A DNA stretch of 13,750 nt, from UHGV virus genome UHGV-0180054, one strand, 5' to 3'. This DNA is from a virus. Under the pieces are notes generated by a model. The model was given only the letters and a program-made list of their open reading frames with translations, made no database searches and was not told the origin of the DNA. Within the stretch, counting starts at the first letter, position 1. Every line of letters starts with the position of its first letter. Both the position numbers and the translations under genes were made by a program. Positions 4,769 to 12,955 of this stretch are shown here, one piece after another.

Positions 4769-6541
4769 ATGACCATCACCACAGACACCACTCTTTTACA
4801 CGACCCGCGTCGTCAGGCGGCGCTGCTGTACTGGCAGGGATTTTCCGTGCCGCAGATTGCCGCCATGTTGCAGATGAAACGCCCGACGGTGCAGAGCTGG
4901 AAACAGCGCGACGGCTGGGACAGTGTTGCCCCCATCAGCCGTGTCGAAATGAGCCTGGAAGCGCGGCTGACCCAGCTCATCATCAAACCGCAGAAAACCG
5001 GCGGTGACTTCAAGGAAATTGACCTGCTCGGACGCCAGATTGAACGACTGGCACGGGTAAACCGTTACAGTCAGACCGGCAACGAGGCAGACCTTAATCC
5101 GAACGTCGCTAACCGCAACAAAGGCGGTCGTCGCAAACCGAAAAAGAATTTTTTCAGTGACGAGGCCATCGAAAAGCTGGAGCAGATTTTCTTTGAGCAG
5201 TCTTTCGAATATCAGTTGCACTGGTATCGCGCCGGGCTTGAGCACCGCATCCGCGATATCCTGAAATCCCGCCAGATTGGCGCGACATTTTATTTTTCCC
5301 GCGAGGCGCTGCTGCGCGCCCTGAAAACCGGTCATAACCAGATTTTTCTGTCGGCCAGTAAAACGCAGGCGTATGTGTTCCGCGAATACATCATCGCCTT
5401 TGCCCGGCTGGTTTACGTTGACCTGACCGGTGACCCGATTGTCCTGGGCAATAACGGCGCAAAACTGATTTTTCTCGGCACCAACTCCAACACCGCACAG
5501 AGCCATAACGGTGACCTGTACGTCGACGAGATTTTCTGGATCCCGAATTTTCAGGTACTGCGTAAGGTGGCATCAGGTATGGCCTCACAGAGTCACCTGC
5601 GCTCGACCTATTTCTCCACCCCGTCCACACTGGCGCACGACGCCTACCCGTTCTGGTCGGGTGAACTGTTTAACCGGGGACGCGCCAGCGCCGCCGAACG
5701 TGTGGAAATCGACGTCAGTCATAACGCCCTTGCCGGTGGGCTTCTCTGTGCGGACGGCCAGTGGCGGCAGATTGTCACCATTGAGGACGCCCTGAAAGGC
5801 GGCTGCACGCTGTTCGACATTGAGCAGCTCAAACGTGAAAACAGCGCCGACGATTTTAAAAACCTGTTCATGTGTGAATTTGTTGACGACAAGGCGTCGG
5901 TGTTCCCGTTCGAGGAGCTGCAACGCTGCATGGTCGACACGCTGGAAGAATGGGAAGACTATGCGCCGTTTGCCGCCAATCCGTTCGGCTCCCGCCCGGT
6001 ATGGATTGGTTACGACCCGTCACACCGTGGCGACAGCGCCGGATGCGTGGTGCTGGCACCGCCGGTGGTGGCCGGAGGTAAATTCAGAATACTTGAGCGT
6101 CACCAGTGGAAAGGCATGGACTTTGCCACCCAGGCTGAATCCATCCGCGAACTCACCGAAAAATACAACGTCGAATACATCGGAATTGATGCCACCGGCC
6201 TCGGTGTCGGCGTGTTCCAGCTCGTGCGCTCGTTCTATCCCGCCGCGCGCGATATCCGCTACACGCCGGAAATGAAAACCGCAATGGTGCTCAAGGCAAA
6301 AGACGTTATCCGCCGTGGCTGTCTGGAATATGACGTCAGCGCCACCGACATCACCAGCTCGTTTATGGCTATCCGCAAGACCATGACCAGCAGCGGACGC
6401 AGCGCCACCTATGAGGCCAGTCGCAGCGAGGAAGCCAGCCACGCCGACCTCGCCTGGGCGACCATGCACGCCCTGTTAAATGAGCCACTCACCGCCGGTA
6501 TCAGCACCCCGCTGACATCCACCATTCTGGAGTTTTACTGA
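4769..6541 (+). CDS. P: Terminase large subunit, ATPase (P2 gpP-like), 590 aa
   Basis: ORF 4739..6541 plus begins with TTG in the track; the first ATG at 4769 (MTITTDTTLLHDPRRQAALLYWQG...) follows GAGG and gives 590 aa, the P2 P length. Stop overlaps Q start (TGATG). Confidence 0.9.
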   Translation: MTITTDTTLLHDPRRQAALLYWQGFSVPQIAAMLQMKRPTVQSWKQRDGWDSVAPISRVEMSLEARLTQLIIKPQKTGGDFKEIDLLGRQIERLARVNRYSQTGNEADLNPNVANRNKGGRRKPKKNFFSDEAIEKLEQIFFEQSFEYQLHWYRAGLEHRIRDILKSRQIGATFYFSREALLRALKTGHNQIFLSASKTQAYVFREYIIAFARLVYVDLTGDPIVLGNNGAKLIFLGTNSNTAQSHNGDLYVDEIFWIPNFQVLRKVASGMASQSHLRSTYFSTPSTLAHDAYPFWSGELFNRGRASAAERVEIDVSHNALAGGLLCADGQWRQIVTIEDALKGGCTLFDIEQLKRENSADDFKNLFMCEFVDDKASVFPFEELQRCMVDTLEEWEDYAPFAANPFGSRPVWIGYDPSHRGDSAGCVVLAPPVVAGGKFRILERHQWKGMDFATQAESIRELTEKYNVEYIGIDATGLGVGVFQLVRSFYPAARDIRYTPEMKTAMVLKAKDVIRRGCLEYDVSATDITSSFMAIRKTMTSSGRSATYEASRSEEASHADLAWATMHALLNEPLTAGISTPLTSTILEFY

Positions 6542-7611
6542 TGAGCAAGAAAAAACGGAAAACACCGCAACCTGCGGCAAAAACAATGACCGCCAGCGCC
6601 CCGAAAATGGAGGCGTTCTCCTTTGGTGAGCCGGTGCCGGTCCTCGACCGCCGTGACATTCTGGATTACGTCGAGTGCATCAGTAACGGCAGATGGTATG
6701 AGCCGCCGCTCAGCTTTACCGGTCTGGCAAAAAGCCTGCGTGCTGCCGTGCATCACAGCTCACCGATTTACGTCAAACGCAATATTCTGGCCTCGACATT
6801 TATCCCGCATCCGTGGCTTTCCCAGCAGGATTTCAGCCGCTTTGTGCTGGATTTTCTGGTGTTCGGTAATGCGTTTCTGGAAAAGCGTTACAGCACTACC
6901 GGTAAGGTCATCAGACTGGAAACCTCACCGGCAAAATATACCCGCCGTGGCGTGGAGGAGGATGTTTACTGGTGGGTGCCATCCTTCAACGAGCCGACGC
7001 CTTTCGCGCCCGGCTCCGTGTTTCACCTGCTGGAGCCGGATATTAATCAGGAGCTGTACGGCCTGCCGGAATATCTCAGCGCCCTTAATTCTGCCTGGCT
7101 GAATGAATCAGCCACGCTGTTCCGCCGCAAGTATTACGAAAACGGCGCTCATGCCGGATACATCATGTACGTCACTGATGCCGTGCAGGATCGCAACGAT
7201 ATCGAAATGCTTCGCGAAAACATGGTGAAGTCAAAAGGCCGCAATAACTTTAAAAATCTGTTTCTCTATGCCCCGCAAGGGAAAGCCGACGGCATTAAAA
7301 TTATCCCGCTCAGTGAAGTGGCAACGAAGGACGATTTTTTTAATATCAAAAAAGCCAGCGCCGCTGACCTGCTGGACGCGCACCGCATCCCCTTTCAGTT
7401 GATGGGCGGCAAGCCGGAGAACGTCGGGTCGCTGGGTGATATTGAGAAAGTGGCAAAGGTCTTTGTCCGCAATGAGCTTATCCCGTTACAGGACAGGATC
7501 CGCGAGATAAACGGCTGGCTCGGTCAGGACGCTGAAAAAATAAAATCAGCACCCCCGCCAGCGCGCAGTGCTTTCCCCGCCTCGCCCGCCCGCTTCATGG
7601 GTCGGTTTTAA
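6541..7611 (+). CDS. Q: Portal protein (P2 gpQ-like), 356 aa as read; 3-prime boundary uncertain
   Basis: ORF 6541..7611 plus, ATG start coupled to P stop; sequence recognised as P2 portal Q. The last ~25 residues (SAPPPARSAFPASPARFMGRF) are low-complexity and overlap the cos 19-mer, so the true C-terminus may differ (P2 Q is 344 aa as far as I recall). Confidence 0.8.
   Translation: MSKKKRKTPQPAAKTMTASAPKMEAFSFGEPVPVLDRRDILDYVECISNGRWYEPPLSFTGLAKSLRAAVHHSSPIYVKRNILASTFIPHPWLSQQDFSRFVLDFLVFGNAFLEKRYSTTGKVIRLETSPAKYTRRGVEEDVYWWVPSFNEPTPFAPGSVFHLLEPDINQELYGLPEYLSALNSAWLNESATLFRRKYYENGAHAGYIMYVTDAVQDRNDIEMLRENMVKSKGRNNFKNLFLYAPQGKADGIKIIPLSEVATKDDFFNIKKASAADLLDAHRIPFQLMGGKPENVGSLGDIEKVAKVFVRNELIPLQDRIREINGWLGQDAEKIKSAPPPARSAFPASPARFMGRF
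7568..7586. other. cos cohesive-end sequence (P2/186/P4-type 19-mer)
   Basis: Plus strand reads GTGCTTTCCCCGCCTCGCC, the exact reverse complement of GGCGAGGCGGGGAAAGCAC, which I recall as the 19-nt cohesive end shared by P2, 186 and P4. Late operon (P, Q) and early operon (A side) both point toward it, as on the circular P2 map. Confidence 0.55.
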
Positions 7612-7714
7612 TGCAGGTGCACGAACACACTGGAGACGCACCAGTACTGGCGGTGGTCACGTAGATCCGCCCCTTAAAAGCCATGCAGAATAATGCAACT
7701 ATTGCGGGCGTCGG

Positions 7715-8134
7715 CTAATCATCTCCTAAAGGTGGAATTTTGATGCCACTAATTAGCAGTACTTTCCGATATGCCTCAAAAATAATGTTGTGTGTTTTTT
7801 GTAAATCATCGAGCATTTTTTGCCGTCCTGCTGGGGTATCTTTGGCAAAATTATGAGCGCGAAAAAAATCATGTGCCAAGTAGTTTCTGGCTTTAAGAGC
7901 ATCTGACACATACTCCAGTGTATCAGCATCCTCCACCATCCTAGATTTCAGTGCGTAATTCAATTTACCCAGCGTGTATTTATCCATTTCTAAAAACTGT
8001 TTTTTCAGCGACTGTATATCTTTCCCCTGACTCATATCATACTCAGTGATAACATTTATCAACTCAGTCTCCAGTAATTGAGCTGCTTCCGAAGCATAAC
8101 CAAATTTCCAATAAACCGTATCAAGCGTCACCAT
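7715..8134 (-). CDS. Hypothetical 139-aa protein, hotspot cargo (candidate partner/immunity/regulator of the upstream HNH protein)
   Basis: ORF 7715..8134 minus, ATG at 8134-8132, stop TAG at 7717-7715; AT-rich codon usage unlike the phage core; mildly acidic (about 21 D/E vs 18 K/R), no motif I recognise; 91 bp downstream of the 443-aa gene on the same strand. Confidence 0.6.
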   Translation of the reverse strand: MVTLDTVYWKFGYASEAAQLLETELINVITEYDMSQGKDIQSLKKQFLEMDKYTLGKLNYALKSRMVEDADTLEYVSDALKARNYLAHDFFRAHNFAKDTPAGRQKMLDDLQKTHNIIFEAYRKVLLISGIKIPPLGDD

Positions 8135-8225
8135 ATAATCTATTCCCCATATAATAAATCACACCCCAAATTAAATCATAATACATAATTAAATCTAACG
8201 CCTCGCTGCACCAGAAGAAGTCATG

Positions 8226-9557
8226 TTAACGCTTATCATGGAACTTTTTCCATTTTGTCATCAACTTTCCAGCATCAAGTTCTACATGATGCGGTTGTAG
8301 AGTTTTTCCCTCAAACATAGTTTTGTGGATACAATTAATAGAGAAATGAACCGTTAAGTCTTCTGGATTAATCCCCATTAATCCTTTATCAAACATTCGG
8401 TGTAAACTTACTTCAAGTAACAGGCCATTAGATGTGTTATTATTTGCCGATTCTGTTATTGCTTCAATATGTGCGGCTTCCAATATCCCCTCTGGCAATG
8501 GATAGCCAGTAATAGCACATCTGCCATTGAAGTTATCCCAAACACGGCGTTTGAAATCAGCTTGATCTCCAGCATGACGGACTTTGTGAGTAACCTCGAC
8601 TGTTCGTCCTGTAGCACAGGTATCGTTTGCGGCCTTGAAAGGATTAGTTAGACTTTCATTAATGGCTATATCCGTTCCATCCATGATAAGAGATATTTCA
8701 TTATTGGGTTCGTGTGATGTTAATGGACTTATGTACTGATTGCTTAAAAAAGTCATACTAGATTCTTCATCAGTCGCGAGTTTCCACGCTTCTGATTGTG
8801 TCATTGTTAGCAATGCCGTTTGATAAACTTGCTTATTAAAATAACGTTTATCTTTCTTGTCACTCCCCATATTAATAGTACTAGATTTAATCGGAAGTGT
8901 TTTATCACCAATTAGTAGATCACGTATTTCTACAGTCTCTTCTAAGGTATCAATAGGAGCTACTATAGGGTTAGTAAACGGGTTATCTACATGATCTACG
9001 TGGTTGTGTCGTAAATGCCACTCTATAGCACTATCTTTTATATGTATCTCGCAGACAGGGCATACAATAAGCCCCATAGATGTTACAGGTAGCTTTTTGC
9101 CACCGATTAAGCGTAATGTATTTGCATTCTGGTTATGTACTTTCTTTTGGTTCTGTGTCAGTACACTACGCTTAGCCTCTAAACGGGTCGGAATCTTAGC
9201 AAGATTAAGCGATTTACGGCTCTCTTGTCTCTCAAGATCATAGATCCGAATCCCTGCTTCAGTTTTGATTTTTGTCCACATAGAGATAGAACTAAGGAAT
9301 TTATGTCCATGTACTTTTTCATAATCAGCATAAACTTGCAAAGTAGCAGTGGAACTATCTAATCCTTTTTTACGGAGTGCTGTATATTGCTGAAAAAGAT
9401 TAATAGCATGAGCTGTAATAGAGCGCCTATTCTCTATAATTTGCGCTTTTTTTGCTGCTTGTTCTGCTTGCAATGCTTTTTGTTCAGGGGTAAGCGACTT
9501 CTTTTTGGTTTTCTTGGTTCTTTTCTTACTCAAAATTTTCTTACTGTTATTGTTCAT
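8226..9557 (-). CDS. HNH (HNH_2-type) nuclease-domain protein with lysine-rich N-terminus and central Cys/His cluster, 443 aa, hotspot cargo
   Basis: ORF 8226..9557 minus, ATG start with AAAGG upstream. C-terminal residues ~341-410 read GRCAITGYPLPEGILEAAHIEAITESANNNTSNGLLLEVSLHRMFDKGLMGINPEDLTVHFSINCI, matching the C-x-x-TG ... AHI ... NGL ... H-x-x-FD signature of HNH_2 (PF13391-like) endonucleases. Residues 5-40 are a K-rich basic tract; residues 166-189 CPVCEIHIKDSAIEWHLRHNHVDH resemble a zinc-binding motif. About 33-38% GC. Confidence 0.75.
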   Translation of the reverse strand: MNNNSKKILSKKRTKKTKKKSLTPEQKALQAEQAAKKAQIIENRRSITAHAINLFQQYTALRKKGLDSSTATLQVYADYEKVHGHKFLSSISMWTKIKTEAGIRIYDLERQESRKSLNLAKIPTRLEAKRSVLTQNQKKVHNQNANTLRLIGGKKLPVTSMGLIVCPVCEIHIKDSAIEWHLRHNHVDHVDNPFTNPIVAPIDTLEETVEIRDLLIGDKTLPIKSSTINMGSDKKDKRYFNKQVYQTALLTMTQSEAWKLATDEESSMTFLSNQYISPLTSHEPNNEISLIMDGTDIAINESLTNPFKAANDTCATGRTVEVTHKVRHAGDQADFKRRVWDNFNGRCAITGYPLPEGILEAAHIEAITESANNNTSNGLLLEVSLHRMFDKGLMGINPEDLTVHFSINCIHKTMFEGKTLQPHHVELDAGKLMTKWKKFHDKR

Positions 9558-9666
9558 TTTGCAAGCCTTTAATCTAATTCATGGAAAGGGGCATTCACTT
9601 GCCCTGTATCCAGTAAACTGACATAACACGATATAAGCAAGCTCCGTAATTCTTTCATGTTAATCA
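9558..9666 (-). promoter_or_regulatory. Intergenic region between A stop and the 443-aa cargo gene; candidate terminator/promoter for the cargo cassette
   Basis: 109-bp gap; weak hairpin (stem around 9588-9592 / 9601-9605) followed on the minus strand by TTTCC; weak sigma70-like hexamers (TTGCTT-17nt-TTTACT on the minus strand). Assignment is speculative. Confidence 0.25.
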
Positions 9667-11943
9667 TCAATGGTCCATTGTGAATCCCGCCCCCTCATAA
9701 GCGACCGGATACGTGAACTTTTTCCCGTCATAATTTACGGTTGCCCCACGCGCCAGCGCCTCAAGCTCCCATCGCTGCGGCCTGATACCGTTCTGAGCAA
9801 GGTCAACGCGGATACGGGTAATTTGCATTCGTTCCGACCGGGTCATTCTGGCCGATGGCGCTATTTCATGCGGTTTTAACGGGCTTCCGTTTCTTTGCTG
9901 ACGATTTGGTGTTCTCATGTCGTGTTTTAATGCGCCCCTGAGCGCCCTCACGACCTCCGGGTCATTCCATTCGATAACACCGTCATCTACCAGATTAAGC
10001 ACTGCTGCGGCGTGTTCAGAAGGTGTGGGAGCCGGTAACGAAGTATCACCACCGGTGAGCTTTCCACAGTTATTGACAGGACTCCGAGGCGCGGCGATGC
10101 CGCTTTTTAAAGTCAAAGGCTCAACGACCGGAACTTTCGGCACAATGCGCCAGTCCGTCGTTCTGGTGATATGAATATGACGCGCGCCGAGATGCGGCGC
10201 GTAAATGCCGACCACTCTCTCGACTTCTTCCTCGTACTCGTTAACGTCATCCGACGGGCTACGGGCGACCCTGACAGTCTGACAATCGCGCGGGACATTT
10301 GCCCCGCCCTGCGCGCTGATATACAACGCAAAATCACCACTGTCTGCAGCGGCGCGTGCAGCCTCGACGCGCTCGTCAAACTCATCAGCAATGCTGACGC
10401 CGCGAGGCAATTTGCGTAGTTCACGGTAAGCCCCCATTGTCGGCAGACCAACCGTTTTAAATTGCGGGATGCGCCACGTTGACGCCCATGCGGTAACAGC
10501 CGCGGCAGTATCTTTCAGCGGTCTGCCGGTATCATTATCGAGCTGACCATCCAGTGCATAGCCGTCGATATTTTTTGAGATGTATTTCGCGATATACCCC
10601 GCAGCACCGCCCCGGTTAAGATGTTTTGCCTGAAAACGGTTTCGCGCGGCTCCTCTTTCGTCTCCATCCTCTTTGAGCGCGTAGCGACGCATGATTTCAA
10701 TAATCTGGTTACGCTGGCGTGGATTACAAAAAAGCATCATATGCCAGTGCGGCGTTCCGTCGTGGTGTGGCTCGACGACACGCAAACCGTAGACCTGTAA
10801 ATCATTATCCTTGAATGCCGTGCGCATCAGGCTCCAGATACGGCAGAGATAACGCTGCGCATCCTTTGGATTAAATGCCTCATCGTTCCAGCCGTGATTA
10901 AGCTGCACGGTTTTACTTTCGCCTTTTCCGACCTGACGTGTCGGGTGATACTTTGACGGCGCGGTCAGCGTGATAAACATCCCCACGTCACCCTCTGCAG
11001 CGGCGTAACGCTCAATACCGGCAATGGTGTTCATCAGCTCCATCCGGCGAATTTCAGGATTAGAAATACTGCCCATCACCTTACTGATAAGGTCGATGCG
11101 CTCGCCGGTTTCCCTGTTCTCAAGGTCACACGATTTAAGAAACTCCAGATTTGCCTGGCGGCGCGCACGCACATCACGAATGGCATGTTTACTGGCATAA
11201 GGAGAACGGTCTTTATTGACCTCCCCGACAGCAATCAGTAACGCCTCATGCCAGCGCATACGCTGGCCTTTAAGCTGATGAGTCCACCACTCATCGTTAA
11301 ACAGGCGGGCAATGGCAGAATATGCCTGCCTCGTGGTCATCTGTCCTTTACGGTATTTTTTCCAGTAGAGAGGGGAAATATTGAAAGCACGTGCAGCGCC
11401 AGCAACATGACCATAGAGGTGAGCCTGCGCCTCATCCGTAAACAGCGATTCTTTCTCGCCATGCGCATCCACCCAGGCATCGCAGAGTTCCTCATACATC
11501 ATGAAAAGCTGTGATGAGATACGGGCGGCAAACTTTTTCAGCTCCTTGTCATTCATCCCCGGCAGGCGCGCATAATGGTCACGCTCTGCCAGAAACAGCA
11601 ACGACGCGTCGGTGTTCATTTCATGGCGCTGATTCACGCGCTCAATGCGCGGCCATAAACGACGCTGAAAAGTGGATGTGAGGAAATAAAACCCGTGCAC
11701 CGGGCTTTTATTGCGCCGGATGTAGTCATAGCGTGAAGTAAACAGCGAGCGCAAAAAGTAAGGCAGGCGGTTAATCGTGGATAAAACACCTTGCACCTGA
11801 CGCATCTCGTCACGTGTAAGGGGTCTTTCGCGCCCGACGGCCTCGCGTGGCGCGTTCCATGCATAAGCACCGGTAAACGTCTTACCGGTGCCTGCGGCAA
11901 ATGCTGACGGAGGGACAAAATGCCCGGAGGCTTTAACGGCCAT
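9667..11943 (-). CDS. A: Replication initiation protein, rolling-circle endonuclease (P2 gpA-like), ~758 aa
   Basis: ORF 9667..11985 minus begins with TTG in the track; first ATG at 11943 (MAVKASGHFVPPSAFAAGTGK...) matches the P2 A N-terminus as I recall it. Contains HUH-type motif (PHWHMMLF) and paired-tyrosine motif (AAGYIAKYISK) typical of rolling-circle initiators. Last gene of the early operon. Confidence 0.9.
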   Translation of the reverse strand: MAVKASGHFVPPSAFAAGTGKTFTGAYAWNAPREAVGRERPLTRDEMRQVQGVLSTINRLPYFLRSLFTSRYDYIRRNKSPVHGFYFLTSTFQRRLWPRIERVNQRHEMNTDASLLFLAERDHYARLPGMNDKELKKFAARISSQLFMMYEELCDAWVDAHGEKESLFTDEAQAHLYGHVAGAARAFNISPLYWKKYRKGQMTTRQAYSAIARLFNDEWWTHQLKGQRMRWHEALLIAVGEVNKDRSPYASKHAIRDVRARRQANLEFLKSCDLENRETGERIDLISKVMGSISNPEIRRMELMNTIAGIERYAAAEGDVGMFITLTAPSKYHPTRQVGKGESKTVQLNHGWNDEAFNPKDAQRYLCRIWSLMRTAFKDNDLQVYGLRVVEPHHDGTPHWHMMLFCNPRQRNQIIEIMRRYALKEDGDERGAARNRFQAKHLNRGGAAGYIAKYISKNIDGYALDGQLDNDTGRPLKDTAAAVTAWASTWRIPQFKTVGLPTMGAYRELRKLPRGVSIADEFDERVEAARAAADSGDFALYISAQGGANVPRDCQTVRVARSPSDDVNEYEEEVERVVGIYAPHLGARHIHITRTTDWRIVPKVPVVEPLTLKSGIAAPRSPVNNCGKLTGGDTSLPAPTPSEHAAAVLNLVDDGVIEWNDPEVVRALRGALKHDMRTPNRQQRNGSPLKPHEIAPSARMTRSERMQITRIRVDLAQNGIRPQRWELEALARGATVNYDGKKFTYPVAYEGAGFTMDH

Positions 11944-12208
11944 GTGAGCCAAAAGCCTCTGAACAACGCTTGCTGAGTTGCTCAACCTGCGCGTTTAAAT
12001 CAGCAAAAGACTTTGCGCTTCCGGTCAGAATATCGTGATGCATCATGCCGGAAACGAGCTGGCTTAATTTCGGGTAATAACCAACCACCGCCAGCCATTC
12101 CTGACCGGCGTTTTTACCACTTTCAGCTCTCTTTTTCTCGTGGAGAATAAACTGAAAGCTGTCACTGGTAACGACATAACGTTCGCCAATTTCAATACGA
12201 ATACTCAT
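11933..12208 (-). CDS. Small early-operon protein (P2 orf83 position), 91 aa
   Basis: ORF 11933..12208 minus, ATG start with GGAG 8 nt upstream; overlaps A start by ~11 nt and is coupled to the upstream ORF by ATGA; function unknown. Confidence 0.6.
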   Translation of the reverse strand: MSIRIEIGERYVVTSDSFQFILHEKKRAESGKNAGQEWLAVVGYYPKLSQLVSGMMHHDILTGSAKSFADLNAQVEQLSKRCSEAFGSHGR

Positions 12209-12429
12209 GCCATTCTCCGGTAATGCTTGTTTTTTGCTTCAAAGACTGACTGGCAGGAAACACAACGCGTGACTGACGGATAAGCCGCACGACGGGCAGC
12301 AGGTATTGGCGCGTCACACTCTTCGCAAACCAGCGCAGAAACACCGCAATGCTTTACCCTTGCCGCGTTAATCTGGCGCTCCAGTAATTCAGCCTGTTGT
12401 TCCTGAATAAAATCTACGTTGTCCGGCAT
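12205..12429 (-). CDS. TraR/DksA-family C4 zinc-finger protein (P2 orf82 position), 74 aa
   Basis: ORF 12205..12429 minus, ATG start with AGGAG 7 nt upstream; CEECDAPIPAARRAAYPSVTRCVSC gives C-x2-C-x17-C-x2-C, the spacing of TraR/DksA-type zinc fingers common in P2-like early operons. Confidence 0.7.
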   Translation of the reverse strand: MPDNVDFIQEQQAELLERQINAARVKHCGVSALVCEECDAPIPAARRAAYPSVTRCVSCQSVFEAKNKHYRRMA

Positions 12430-12731
12430 TACCAGCTCCTTTTGTCGTTCAGCTTCTTAAATTCATCAGCGCAATAGCTGGCGATTTCTGTCGTTAATTT
12501 TGTCAGTTCATCCACGGATGAAATTTGCTTATGAAATACAGCGCGTTTAACAAGTAAATTGACCACATCAGACAGGAGATTTAATTCGTTCTGATAAATC
12601 GCGAAAACAGATTCAGTTATTTCGCGTTTTTCTTTATCAAGACCAAGTTGAATAAGAGACAAATCGCCATTTTTCATAACGGCGATTTTTAAGGCATTGT
12701 TCAGTAATACAACTGAATGAGAACAGGACAT
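12429..12731 (-). CDS. Small early-operon protein (P2 orf81 position), 100 aa
   Basis: Track ORF 12429..12734 starts with TTG; first ATG at 12731-12729 with GGAGG upstream; start overlaps upstream stop (TGATG); function unknown. Confidence 0.6.
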   Translation of the reverse strand: MSCSHSVVLLNNALKIAVMKNGDLSLIQLGLDKEKREITESVFAIYQNELNLLSDVVNLLVKRAVFHKQISSVDELTKLTTEIASYCADEFKKLNDKRSW

Positions 12732-12955
12732 CAAAGCACCTCCCCGCGAGACAATCCGATGTTGTGAAATTTTTCCGACTCCTGACTGAGCAGCTCGACT
12801 ATCTCCACGCGGGATAACTCCGCCTTTGTGATGTGGCGAATCATGGCGTCAAGATGAGAAGAAAAGCGCGTCGCTGCGTCGGCCTGTGCTTCGGCTCTGG
12901 CCTGTTGCAGCAGTAATGCGTATTTACCGCACTGATTTTCAGAAACTGTATGCAT
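12731..12955 (-). CDS. Small early-operon protein (P2 orf80 position), 74 aa
   Basis: Track ORF 12731..12988 begins at a non-ATG codon (ATT); first ATG at 12955-12953 ([18 protein letters not shown]...) with GGAG 6 nt upstream; function unknown. Confidence 0.55.

What the first reader, a model, noticed from the sequence alone, without database searches (positions are those of the whole stretch)
7587..9666. AT-rich two-gene cargo cassette in the A-cos slot, replacing P2 orf91/tin/old: candidate undescribed defence system
Seen in sequence: the A stop (9667) and the cos 19-mer (7568-7586) are separated by ~2.1 kb holding two minus-strand ORFs (443 aa and 139 aa). Sampled 60-nt lines here are about 33-38% GC (8281-8340, 8341-8400) against about 62% in phage structural genes (2041-2100). 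Established knowledge: in P2 this slot carries orf91, tin and old (tin and old are phage-exclusion genes), and in P2-like prophages it is a recognised variable hotspot carrying diverse anti-phage systems. Inference: the cassette is horizontally acquired and most plausibly a phage-exclusion/defence or toxin-immunity module. The HNH protein does not look like Old (no ATPase Walker motifs or TOPRIM seen) or Tin.
Basis: partly seen in the sequence, partly recalled or inferred. Interest (0 to 1): 0.85.

Follow-up and report, generated by a model that had tools for sequence, protein, structure and literature searches.

The report
Two separate cargo genes in P2 hotspot
The AT-rich insert between the replication gene and the cos site of this P2-like prophage is real hotspot cargo, but it consists of two independently mobile, untested single genes (a zinc-finger HNH nuclease and a small HEPN-like protein) and is not one two-gene defence system.

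Summary
Window 7587-9666 lies between the P2 cos 19-mer and the stop of gene A. It is 38.7% GC against 50-57% in the flanks and holds two minus-strand ORFs of 443 and 139 aa.

The "one two-gene system" reading does not hold.
- Nucleotide homology splits the insert at about 8212-8217.
- The HNH module (about 8214-9646, with its own conserved 5' region) recurs at 81-85% identity in a Citrobacter island beside Gabija, a Pectobacterium integrative element and a lambdoid prophage. It never has the 139-aa gene there.
- The 139-aa module (PSP3 orf38 family, also with its own conserved 5' region) sits in P2/186-like hotspots with at least five other neighbour sets. It also occurs as a solitary gene across many phyla.

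The 443-aa protein combines a helical N-terminus, one C2H2 zinc finger and an intact HNH_2 domain. There is no methyltransferase and no known modification sensor. The 139-aa protein is all-helical with an invariant RNxLxH motif. A HEPN assignment is plausible but unproven.

The arrangement is already listed, untested, in Rousset 2022 Table S5A. It matches no named defence system. Defence is inferred from context only. Interest is moderate.

The parts
7568..7586 (.). P2-type 19-nt cohesive-end (cos) sequence. It forms the left border of the slot.
   Evidence: Sequence read. Linear P2-like phage records end 19 nt beyond the match to window 7587 onward.
7587..7714 (.). Cos-proximal P2 backbone (GC 0.56). 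Non-coding and not part of the foreign cargo.
7715..8134 (-). 139-aa gene of the PSP3 orf38/gp38 family. All-helical protein with invariant RNxLxH (R83-H88) and an invariant N-terminal EAAQLLE motif. Candidate minimal HEPN-like protein that acts alone.
8135..8211 (-). Conserved 5' region of the 139-aa module, presumably its promoter and ribosome-binding site. It travels with the gene in every P2/186-like context.
   Evidence: Alignment. Homology to L002, L009 and L026 ends at 8209-8211.
8194..8215 (-). Terminator-like hairpin just after the HNH stop. It lies at the junction of the two modules (about 8212-8217).
8226..9557 (-). 443-aa gene. Lys-rich tail, helical N-terminal region (residues 24-143), single C2H2 zinc finger, small helical domain (242-275), and C-terminal HNH_2 nuclease.
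9003..9116 (-). Codons for the C2H2 zinc finger (residues 148-185). C166, C169, H181 and H186 are invariant or nearly so in the family.
8229..8573 (-). Codons for the HNH_2 nuclease domain (residues 329-443). H363, N377 and H386 are invariant.
9558..9646 (-). Conserved 5' region of the HNH module. It is shared with copies in Citrobacter, Pectobacterium and a lambdoid prophage. P2 backbone homology resumes at about 9654.
9667..11985 (-). Replication endonuclease gene A. It forms the right border of the slot.
6541..7611 (+). Portal gene Q, beyond the left border. Its 3' end is altered by a deletion of about 177 nt near 7525.

Best explanation
The slot holds two self-contained single-gene modules that recombination placed side by side. 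It does not hold an operon.

Module 1 (about 8214-9646) encodes a stand-alone DNA endonuclease.
- The HNH_2 active site is intact.
- A single classical C2H2 zinc finger and a Lys-rich tail probably bind DNA.
- The long N-terminal helices probably mediate oligomerisation.
- It has no methyltransferase, no immunity gene and no conserved partner.
- So it must either target a feature that host DNA lacks (restriction-like, type IV-like) or be held inactive until infection.

Module 2 (7715 to about 8211) encodes a 139-aa helical protein with an invariant RNxLxH motif. The likeliest reading is a minimal HEPN-type RNase that works alone as an abortive-infection effector, in the manner of HepS.

Shown: the anatomy, the intact motifs, the modular independence and the mobile-element or defence-island contexts.

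Inferred: that either gene defends against phage, the substrates, the triggers, and the HEPN assignment itself.
For: Independence of the two genes:
- tblastn of both proteins against all fetched loci finds them together only in copies that are 98% or more identical (L001, L032-35). Otherwise each occurs without the other.
- The HNH module shares 81-85% nucleotide identity with L003, L007 and L030 over window 9646/9582 to 8214/8218. The 139-aa module's homology to other prophages starts at 8211.
- Each module has its own conserved upstream stretch. A terminator-like hairpin lies between them.
- Five HNH contexts share no neighbouring gene. In 67 loci of the small gene from many phyla, no neighbour family occurs in more than 4 loci.

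Contexts of HNH homologues:
- Beside Gabija-like genes.
- In an integrative element with a relaxase.
- Beside AAA_15/DUF4435 genes.
- Beside a TIR-domain gene in a lambdoid prophage.

Contexts of the small gene:
- At least five different partner sets in the P2/186 hotspot.
- On a plasmid-like element with a VapC-type (PIN-domain) toxin gene, an ArdC antirestriction-like gene and a GmrSD_N gene.

Domains of the 443-aa protein:
- HNH_2 at E 7e-11, above Pfam's cut-off.
- H363, N377 and H386 are invariant.
- The closest solved relative is the HNH domain of VcaM4I, 6yex. From my own knowledge, not a tool result, VcaM4I is a modification-dependent (type IV) enzyme.
- C2H2 zinc-finger families and solved zinc-finger structures match residues 148-185.

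Features of the 139-aa protein:
- RNxLxH is invariant in the close family. R83 is invariant, and N84, L86 and H88 are nearly invariant, in remote members.
- The AlphaFold model has pLDDT 89.6 and is all-helical.
- Family members give sub-threshold hits to six HEPN Pfam families and to PADLOC Cas13-ApeA.

Precedent: HepS is a single HEPN protein on a prophage that works as a self-sufficient abortive-infection system (PMC13043305).
Against: - No phenotype exists for either gene.
- Profile searches of the PDB found no HEPN chain.
- hhalign against a HepT-like subfamily and against DUF4145 and DUF6988 proteins was negative.
- The one significant HepT-like hit lies in a second domain of a fusion protein, not in this domain.
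- The HNH protein has no recognisable modification-sensing domain, so 'type IV-like' rests only on the absence of a partner.
- Its model has pTM 0.31, and the fold search on it gave nothing.
- Both genes could be selfish or serve the phage rather than the host.
Confidence: 0.55

Rival explanations
1. One reading: one obligate two-gene system. The HNH nuclease acts as toxin or effector. The 139-aa protein acts as its immunity, sensor or partner.
For: The genes are adjacent, on the same strand and 91 nt apart. They are always together in the 12 E. coli genomes and 4 other contigs that carry this cassette. Both are AT-rich.
Against: - All those copies are 98% or more identical, so they amount to one recombination product.
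- HNH homologues of 65-77% identity occur in four other element types without the small gene.
- Small-gene homologues of 63-83% identity occur with at least five other neighbour sets.
- There is a clean nucleotide junction, and each gene has its own conserved 5' region.
Confidence: 0.07
2. The HNH gene is a selfish mobile nuclease, similar to a free-standing homing endonuclease. It spreads by cutting elements that lack it. The small gene is a phage accessory gene with no defence role.
For: - The nearly identical 1.4-kb module, including its 5' region, sits in four unrelated mobile-element backbones.
- Sequence-reading DNA-binding modules such as zinc fingers are typical of homing enzymes.
- Related HNH domains occur in virulent Salmonella phages.
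Against: - The insertion sites have no common flanks.
- HNH_2 is, from my own knowledge, the restriction-type branch. The closest solved relative is a restriction enzyme.
- The neighbours are repeatedly defence genes.
Confidence: 0.15
3. The 139-aa protein is not a nuclease. It is a counter-defence factor or a regulator carried by P2/186-like phages.
For: It is small, helical, without a Pfam family, and lies at the end of the genome next to cos. In PSP3 it follows tumA and the dinI-like tumB gene. The HEPN evidence is sub-threshold.
Against: - The family has 1962 clusters at 50% identity, spread across many bacterial phyla, mostly outside recognisable P2 contexts.
- The invariant charged and polar residues (E16, Q19, E22, E24, R83, N84, H88, H94) look like an active site.
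Confidence: 0.12
4. The HNH protein is a DNA-packaging accessory nuclease, like the HNH proteins found beside cos and terminase genes in other phages.
For: It lies about 0.6 kb from cos and near the portal and terminase genes. That class is described in PMC3592412.
Against: - It is absent from nearly all P2-like prophages. Only 12 genomes carry it, while 2153 of 5426 match the cos-portal region.
- It occurs in non-phage islands.
- It is 443 aa and of the HNH_2 type, without the [CxxC]2 zinc site that defines that class.
Confidence: 0.02

Closest known systems
P2 gpA-gpQ (tin/old) defence hotspot (Rousset et al. 2022, PMC9122126; Vassallo et al. 2022, PMC9519451)
   Same: Same slot, between the replication endonuclease gene and the portal gene/cos. 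Same pattern of AT-rich, rapidly swapped cargo. This exact gene pair is listed in their Table S5.
   Different: The cargo is not Old, a retron, PARIS or any validated system (Tin was not compared directly). It was not among the systems they tested.
HNH_2-type restriction endonucleases such as VcaM4I (6yex); from my own knowledge these, with TagI and ScoMcrA, are modification-dependent type IV enzymes
   Same: Same catalytic domain family with conserved H-N-H residues. Single polypeptide and no methyltransferase.
   Different: It has no EVE, SRA, PUA or sulfur-binding sensor domain. Instead it has a helical N-terminus and one C2H2 zinc finger. The NCBIfam PT-DNA restriction model scores 33 bits against a cut-off of 180.
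HepS, the single-protein HEPN abortive-infection system of prophage Gifsy-1 (PMC13043305)
   Same: A small stand-alone protein with an Rx4-6H motif, encoded on a prophage, with no conserved partner.
   Different: No detectable sequence relationship was found, and HepS itself was not compared directly. The HEPN fold of the 139-aa protein is unproven. Its trigger and substrate are unknown.
Salmonella phage PSP3 gp38 (orf38)
   Same: Orthologue at 71% identity over the full length, in the same position next to cos.
   Different: PSP3 gp38 is itself uncharacterised. Its neighbours are tumA, tumB and gp37, not an HNH gene.
PD-Lambda-3 (PADLOC model PD-Lambda-3_B)
   Same: Weak local match of residues 32-95, including RNYLAH, to the B component (E 0.002).
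   Different: The match is sub-threshold and partial. No A component is present. Only one member of the wider family matches.

Membership tests
P2 gpA-gpQ hotspot cargo | Lies between replication endonuclease gene A and portal gene Q/cos of a P2-like prophage | tested here: met
P2 gpA-gpQ hotspot cargo | Content varies among otherwise similar prophages | tested here: met
   The flanks are 98% identical to other prophages. The slot holds other genes in L002, L009, L013, L026 and L027. The cassette is in 12 of 5426 genomes.
HNH_2 (PF13391) nucleases | Profile match above the curated cut-off, with conserved catalytic His-Asn-His | tested here: met
   42.2 bits against a cut-off of 21. H363, N377 and H386 are invariant in 54 sequences.
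Type IV modification-dependent HNH restriction enzymes (PUA/SRA/EVE/SBD-HNH) | A modification-sensing domain fused to the nuclease | tested here: not met
   No such Pfam domain in the protein or in 53 homologues. The AlphaFold model shows only helices, one zinc finger and the HNH domain.
Type IV modification-dependent HNH restriction enzymes (PUA/SRA/EVE/SBD-HNH) | Cleaves modified DNA but not unmodified DNA | not testable with these tools
   Needs biochemistry or plating on phages with and without modified DNA.
Restriction-modification system | A cognate methyltransferase is linked to the nuclease | tested here: not met
   No methyltransferase in the window's prophage genes or beside the homologues.
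Old (ABC ATPase + TOPRIM) | ATPase and TOPRIM domains | tested here: not met
   Absent in the Pfam and PADLOC scans.
Two-gene toxin-antitoxin or toxin-immunity system | The two genes co-occur across diverged homologues | tested here: not met
HEPN superfamily (139-aa protein) | Conserved Rx4-6H motif | tested here: met
   RNxLxH is invariant in 32 close members. R83 is invariant and N84, L86 and H88 are at least 90% conserved in 32 remote members.
HEPN superfamily (139-aa protein) | HEPN helical-bundle fold | tested here: inconclusive
HEPN superfamily (139-aa protein) | Significant profile similarity to a curated HEPN family | tested here: not met
   Only sub-threshold hits. hhalign against a HepT-like subfamily was negative. 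No PDB hit.
HEPN superfamily (139-aa protein) | Metal-independent RNase activity that depends on the Arg and His | not testable with these tools
   Needs an assay.
Packaging-associated HNH endonucleases beside cos and terminase genes | A small HNH protein with a [CxxC]2 zinc site, conserved across the phage group | tested here: not met
   The protein is 443 aa and of HNH_2 type. It is present in 12 genomes while 2153 carry the cos-portal region. The class is defined in PMC3592412.
PD-Lambda-3 | Both components present with significant matches | tested here: not met
   Only the B model matches, at E 0.002 over 64 residues. There is no A component.

The most novel reading that the evidence does not exclude
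Both genes are new, self-sufficient single-gene anti-phage systems.

The first would be a C2H2 zinc-finger HNH_2 nuclease. It would tell phage DNA from host DNA without a methyltransferase or any known modification-sensing domain.

The second would be a 139-aa minimal HEPN-like RNase. It belongs to a family with no Pfam model, about 2000 clusters at 50% identity, and members in many bacterial phyla.
Probability: 0.3. Interest if true: 0.6.

Novelty: new member of a known kind. Interest (0 to 1): 0.4.

Why it matters
About one in five P2-like prophages carry hotspot cargo with no recognisable defence gene (PMC13586616). This locus is a clean example of that group, and it resolves into two separately testable genes.

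If they defend, the zinc-finger HNH family would raise the question of how a lone nuclease spares host DNA.

The 139-aa family is very widespread, has no partner and has no Pfam model. It would be one of the smallest self-contained immune effectors known.

The precise module borders found here also illustrate how hotspot cargo is assembled by joining ready-made promoter-plus-gene units.

Tried and rejected
- Foldseek of both models against the PDB returned only generic helical hits. The afdb50 library was not available.
- Profile searches of PDB sequences with the small family found nothing meaningful.
- hhalign of the small family against a DUF4145 protein, a DUF6988 protein and a HepT-like subfamily alignment was negative in every case.
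- The HepT-like hit at E 1.5e-5 turned out to lie in a second domain of the fusion protein P0161, so I did not count it as evidence.
- The PDC-S18 hit lies outside the shared domain of P0184.
- A 58-aa insert in the Citrobacter, Pectobacterium and Enterobacter homologues looked AP2-like by eye. It gave no Pfam hit, so I dropped it as evidence.
- Rfam, tandem-repeat and repeat scans of 7400-9900 found no RNA antitoxin-like element.
- The promoter scan found no more sites than shuffled sequence, so I name no promoter.
- The accessions are absent from the DefensePredictor supplements. The supplements of the 2026 NAR P2/P4 paper are not held.
- I considered a packaging-HNH role and rejected it on distribution and domain type.
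Full report
**1. Observation**

The window is a P2-like prophage segment. Terminase, capsid and portal genes lie on the left. Gene A and the early genes lie on the right.

Two minus-strand ORFs lie between the portal gene and gene A. One is 8226..9557 (443 aa) and the other is 7715..8134 (139 aa).

The 19-mer at 7568-7586 is GTGCTTTCCCCGCCTCGCC. Window 7587 onward matches the last bases of linear P2-like phage records. In phage L-413C exactly 19 nt remain beyond the match.

The cassette is 38.7% GC. The left flank is 56.7% and the right flank is 50.3%. No equally long stretch elsewhere in the window falls below 46.8%.

**2. The two genes are separate modules**

This is the main result. The whole cassette occurs at about 99% identity in 12 of 5426 complete E. 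coli genomes and in a few other contigs.

Diverged homologues tell a different story. Homologues of the 443-aa protein occur without the 139-aa gene in several places:
- At 65% identity in a Citrobacter island, 1.2 kb from Gabija-like genes.
- At about 65% identity in a Pectobacterium integrative element with recombinases and a relaxase.
- At 77% identity in a lambdoid prophage, beside a TIR-domain gene between the antiterminator and lysis genes.
- At about 37% identity beside AAA_15/DUF4435 genes in E. coli, and in a Cronobacter islet.

None of these loci encodes the 139-aa protein. The five contexts share no other neighbouring gene.

The 139-aa gene, for its part, occurs in P2/186-like hotspots with other neighbours:
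- DUF2971 plus two hypothetical genes in ST131 strains.
- DUF3850 plus a 68-aa gene.
- DinI plus a 243-aa gene in Salmonella.
- DinI plus a GmrSD_N gene in Kosakonia.
- tumA, tumB and gp37 in phage PSP3, where it is gp38/orf38 at 71% identity.

In E. coli it is in 31 of 5426 genomes, and only 12 of those carry the HNH gene.

At the nucleotide level the split is sharp:
- The HNH module matches its Citrobacter, Pectobacterium and lambdoid copies at 81-85% over window 9646/9582 to 8214/8218.
- The small module's homology to other prophages begins at 8211/8209.
- P2 backbone homology resumes at about 9654.

Each module brings about 80-90 nt of conserved upstream sequence with it. A terminator-like hairpin sits at the junction. 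This excludes an obligate toxin-immunity pair as the simplest reading.

**3. The 443-aa protein**

Pfam finds HNH_2 at residues 347-397, above the cut-off. H363, N377 and H386 are invariant in 54 family members.

The closest solved sequence is the HNH domain of VcaM4I (6yex). From my own knowledge, VcaM4I is a modification-dependent EVE-HNH enzyme. The nearest NCBIfam model is the phosphorothioate-DNA restriction enzyme, but it scores far below its cut-off and matches only the nuclease part.

C166, C169, H181 and H186 are invariant or nearly so. Family members match several C2H2 zinc-finger Pfam families, and the family profile matches solved classical zinc fingers. The AlphaFold model shows a beta-beta-alpha unit at that position.

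The model (pLDDT 70, pTM 0.31) contains:
- Long helices at 24-143.
- The zinc finger.
- A small helical domain at 242-275.
- The HNH domain.
- Disordered linkers joining these parts.

No modification-sensing domain and no methyltransferase is present. PADLOC matches only generic HNH models.

My inference is a lone DNA nuclease. It either recognises something host DNA lacks or is kept inactive until infection. I cannot tell which.

**4. The 139-aa protein**

It has no Pfam family. It matches PHROG 12893, of unknown function.

The family is large. A profile search of 1.84 billion representatives found 1962 clusters at E up to 0.001. It spans Acidobacteriota, Proteobacteria, Gemmatimonadota, Planctomycetota and other phyla. 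In 67 loci there is no conserved neighbour.

Invariant residues include EAAQLLE in helix 1 and RNxLxH (R83-H88). The model is confident (pLDDT 89.6) and all-helical.

Evidence for HEPN:
- The Rx4H motif.
- Repeated sub-threshold hits of family members to HEPN_RiboL-PSP, HEPN_Apea, HepT-like, HEPN_Cthe2314, HEPN_Swt1 and DUF4145, and to PADLOC Cas13-ApeA. That DUF4145 belongs to the HEPN clan is from my memory.

Evidence against HEPN:
- No PDB sequence hit.
- Negative hhalign against a HepT-like subfamily and against DUF4145 and DUF6988 proteins.

I put HEPN at roughly even odds. HepS shows that a single HEPN protein on a prophage can be a complete abortive-infection system (PMC13043305).

**5. 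Literature**

Rousset et al. 2022 define the gpA-gpQ hotspot, with 1,650 arrangements in 18,150 loci. They list this exact arrangement with these accessions in Table S5. It is not in their table of tested systems.

Vassallo et al. 2022 also found systems in this slot. None of them matches this locus in the PADLOC scan.

The accessions are absent from the DefensePredictor supplements.

A 2026 study reports that 19% of P2 elements lack identifiable defence genes. In that study, 6 of 8 such P4 loci tested gave protection (PMC13586616). That sets a reasonable prior for defence here, but it is not evidence for these particular genes.

**6. Verdict**

The locus is real hotspot cargo, horizontally acquired and not matched by any named system. 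It is a mosaic of two independent single-gene modules and not a two-gene system.

It is already catalogued but untested, and its defence role is inferred from context. It is an ordinary, though cleanly resolved, example of a known phenomenon, carrying two uncharacterised protein families that are worth a simple plating test.

Noticed in passing
window about 7521-7529: The window lacks about 177 nt that are present in all the closest E. coli relatives. The junction shows the microhomology GTCAGGA. The deletion removes the last 15 portal codons, the stop codon, a GC-rich terminator hairpin and about 120 nt to the left of cos. As a result the portal ORF reads through cos (356 aa instead of 344). 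The closest complete E. coli genomes listed do not share the deletion. It may mark a defective prophage.
   Followed up: partly
homologues P0003, P0008, P0010 (L003 and L007, about 6600-6780): These homologues carry a 58-aa insert between the zinc finger and the small helical domain. The window protein and P0007 lack it. By eye it looks like a beta-rich DNA-binding (AP2-like) unit, but it gave no Pfam hit.
   Followed up: partly
protein P0161 (279 aa, from the representative search): A natural fusion of the 139-aa family domain (residues 1-143) to a HepT-like domain (residues 169-263). The HepT-like domain has lost its usual motif.
   Followed up: partly
NZ_CP080235.1, E. coli W13-16 (hit H30): This copy of the cassette is interrupted by an IS3-family transposase. 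The match falls in two pieces that span 3.4 kb.
   Followed up: no
L016 4084-9113: A 43%-identical homologue of the 139-aa protein in an Acidobacteriota genome sits in a same-strand run of small genes that includes a DUF4145 and a DUF6988 gene, with a DUF5677 gene about 2.6 kb further on. A resolvase gene lies nearby.
   Followed up: no
L013 5631-7409; L028 7355-8471: Homologues of the 139-aa gene lie within 3 kb of GmrSD_N (type IV restriction-like) genes in two unrelated elements. This could be chance.
   Followed up: no
Salmonella phages 7-11, SeKF_80 and SE131 (hits H47-H55): These Salmonella phage genomes of about 90 kb encode proteins whose C-terminus is 36-48% identical to the HNH domain studied here. 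One of them is annotated as ParB-like.
   Followed up: no
window 12400-12800: A second, smaller GC dip (0.40) lies in the early-gene region to the right of gene A.
   Followed up: no
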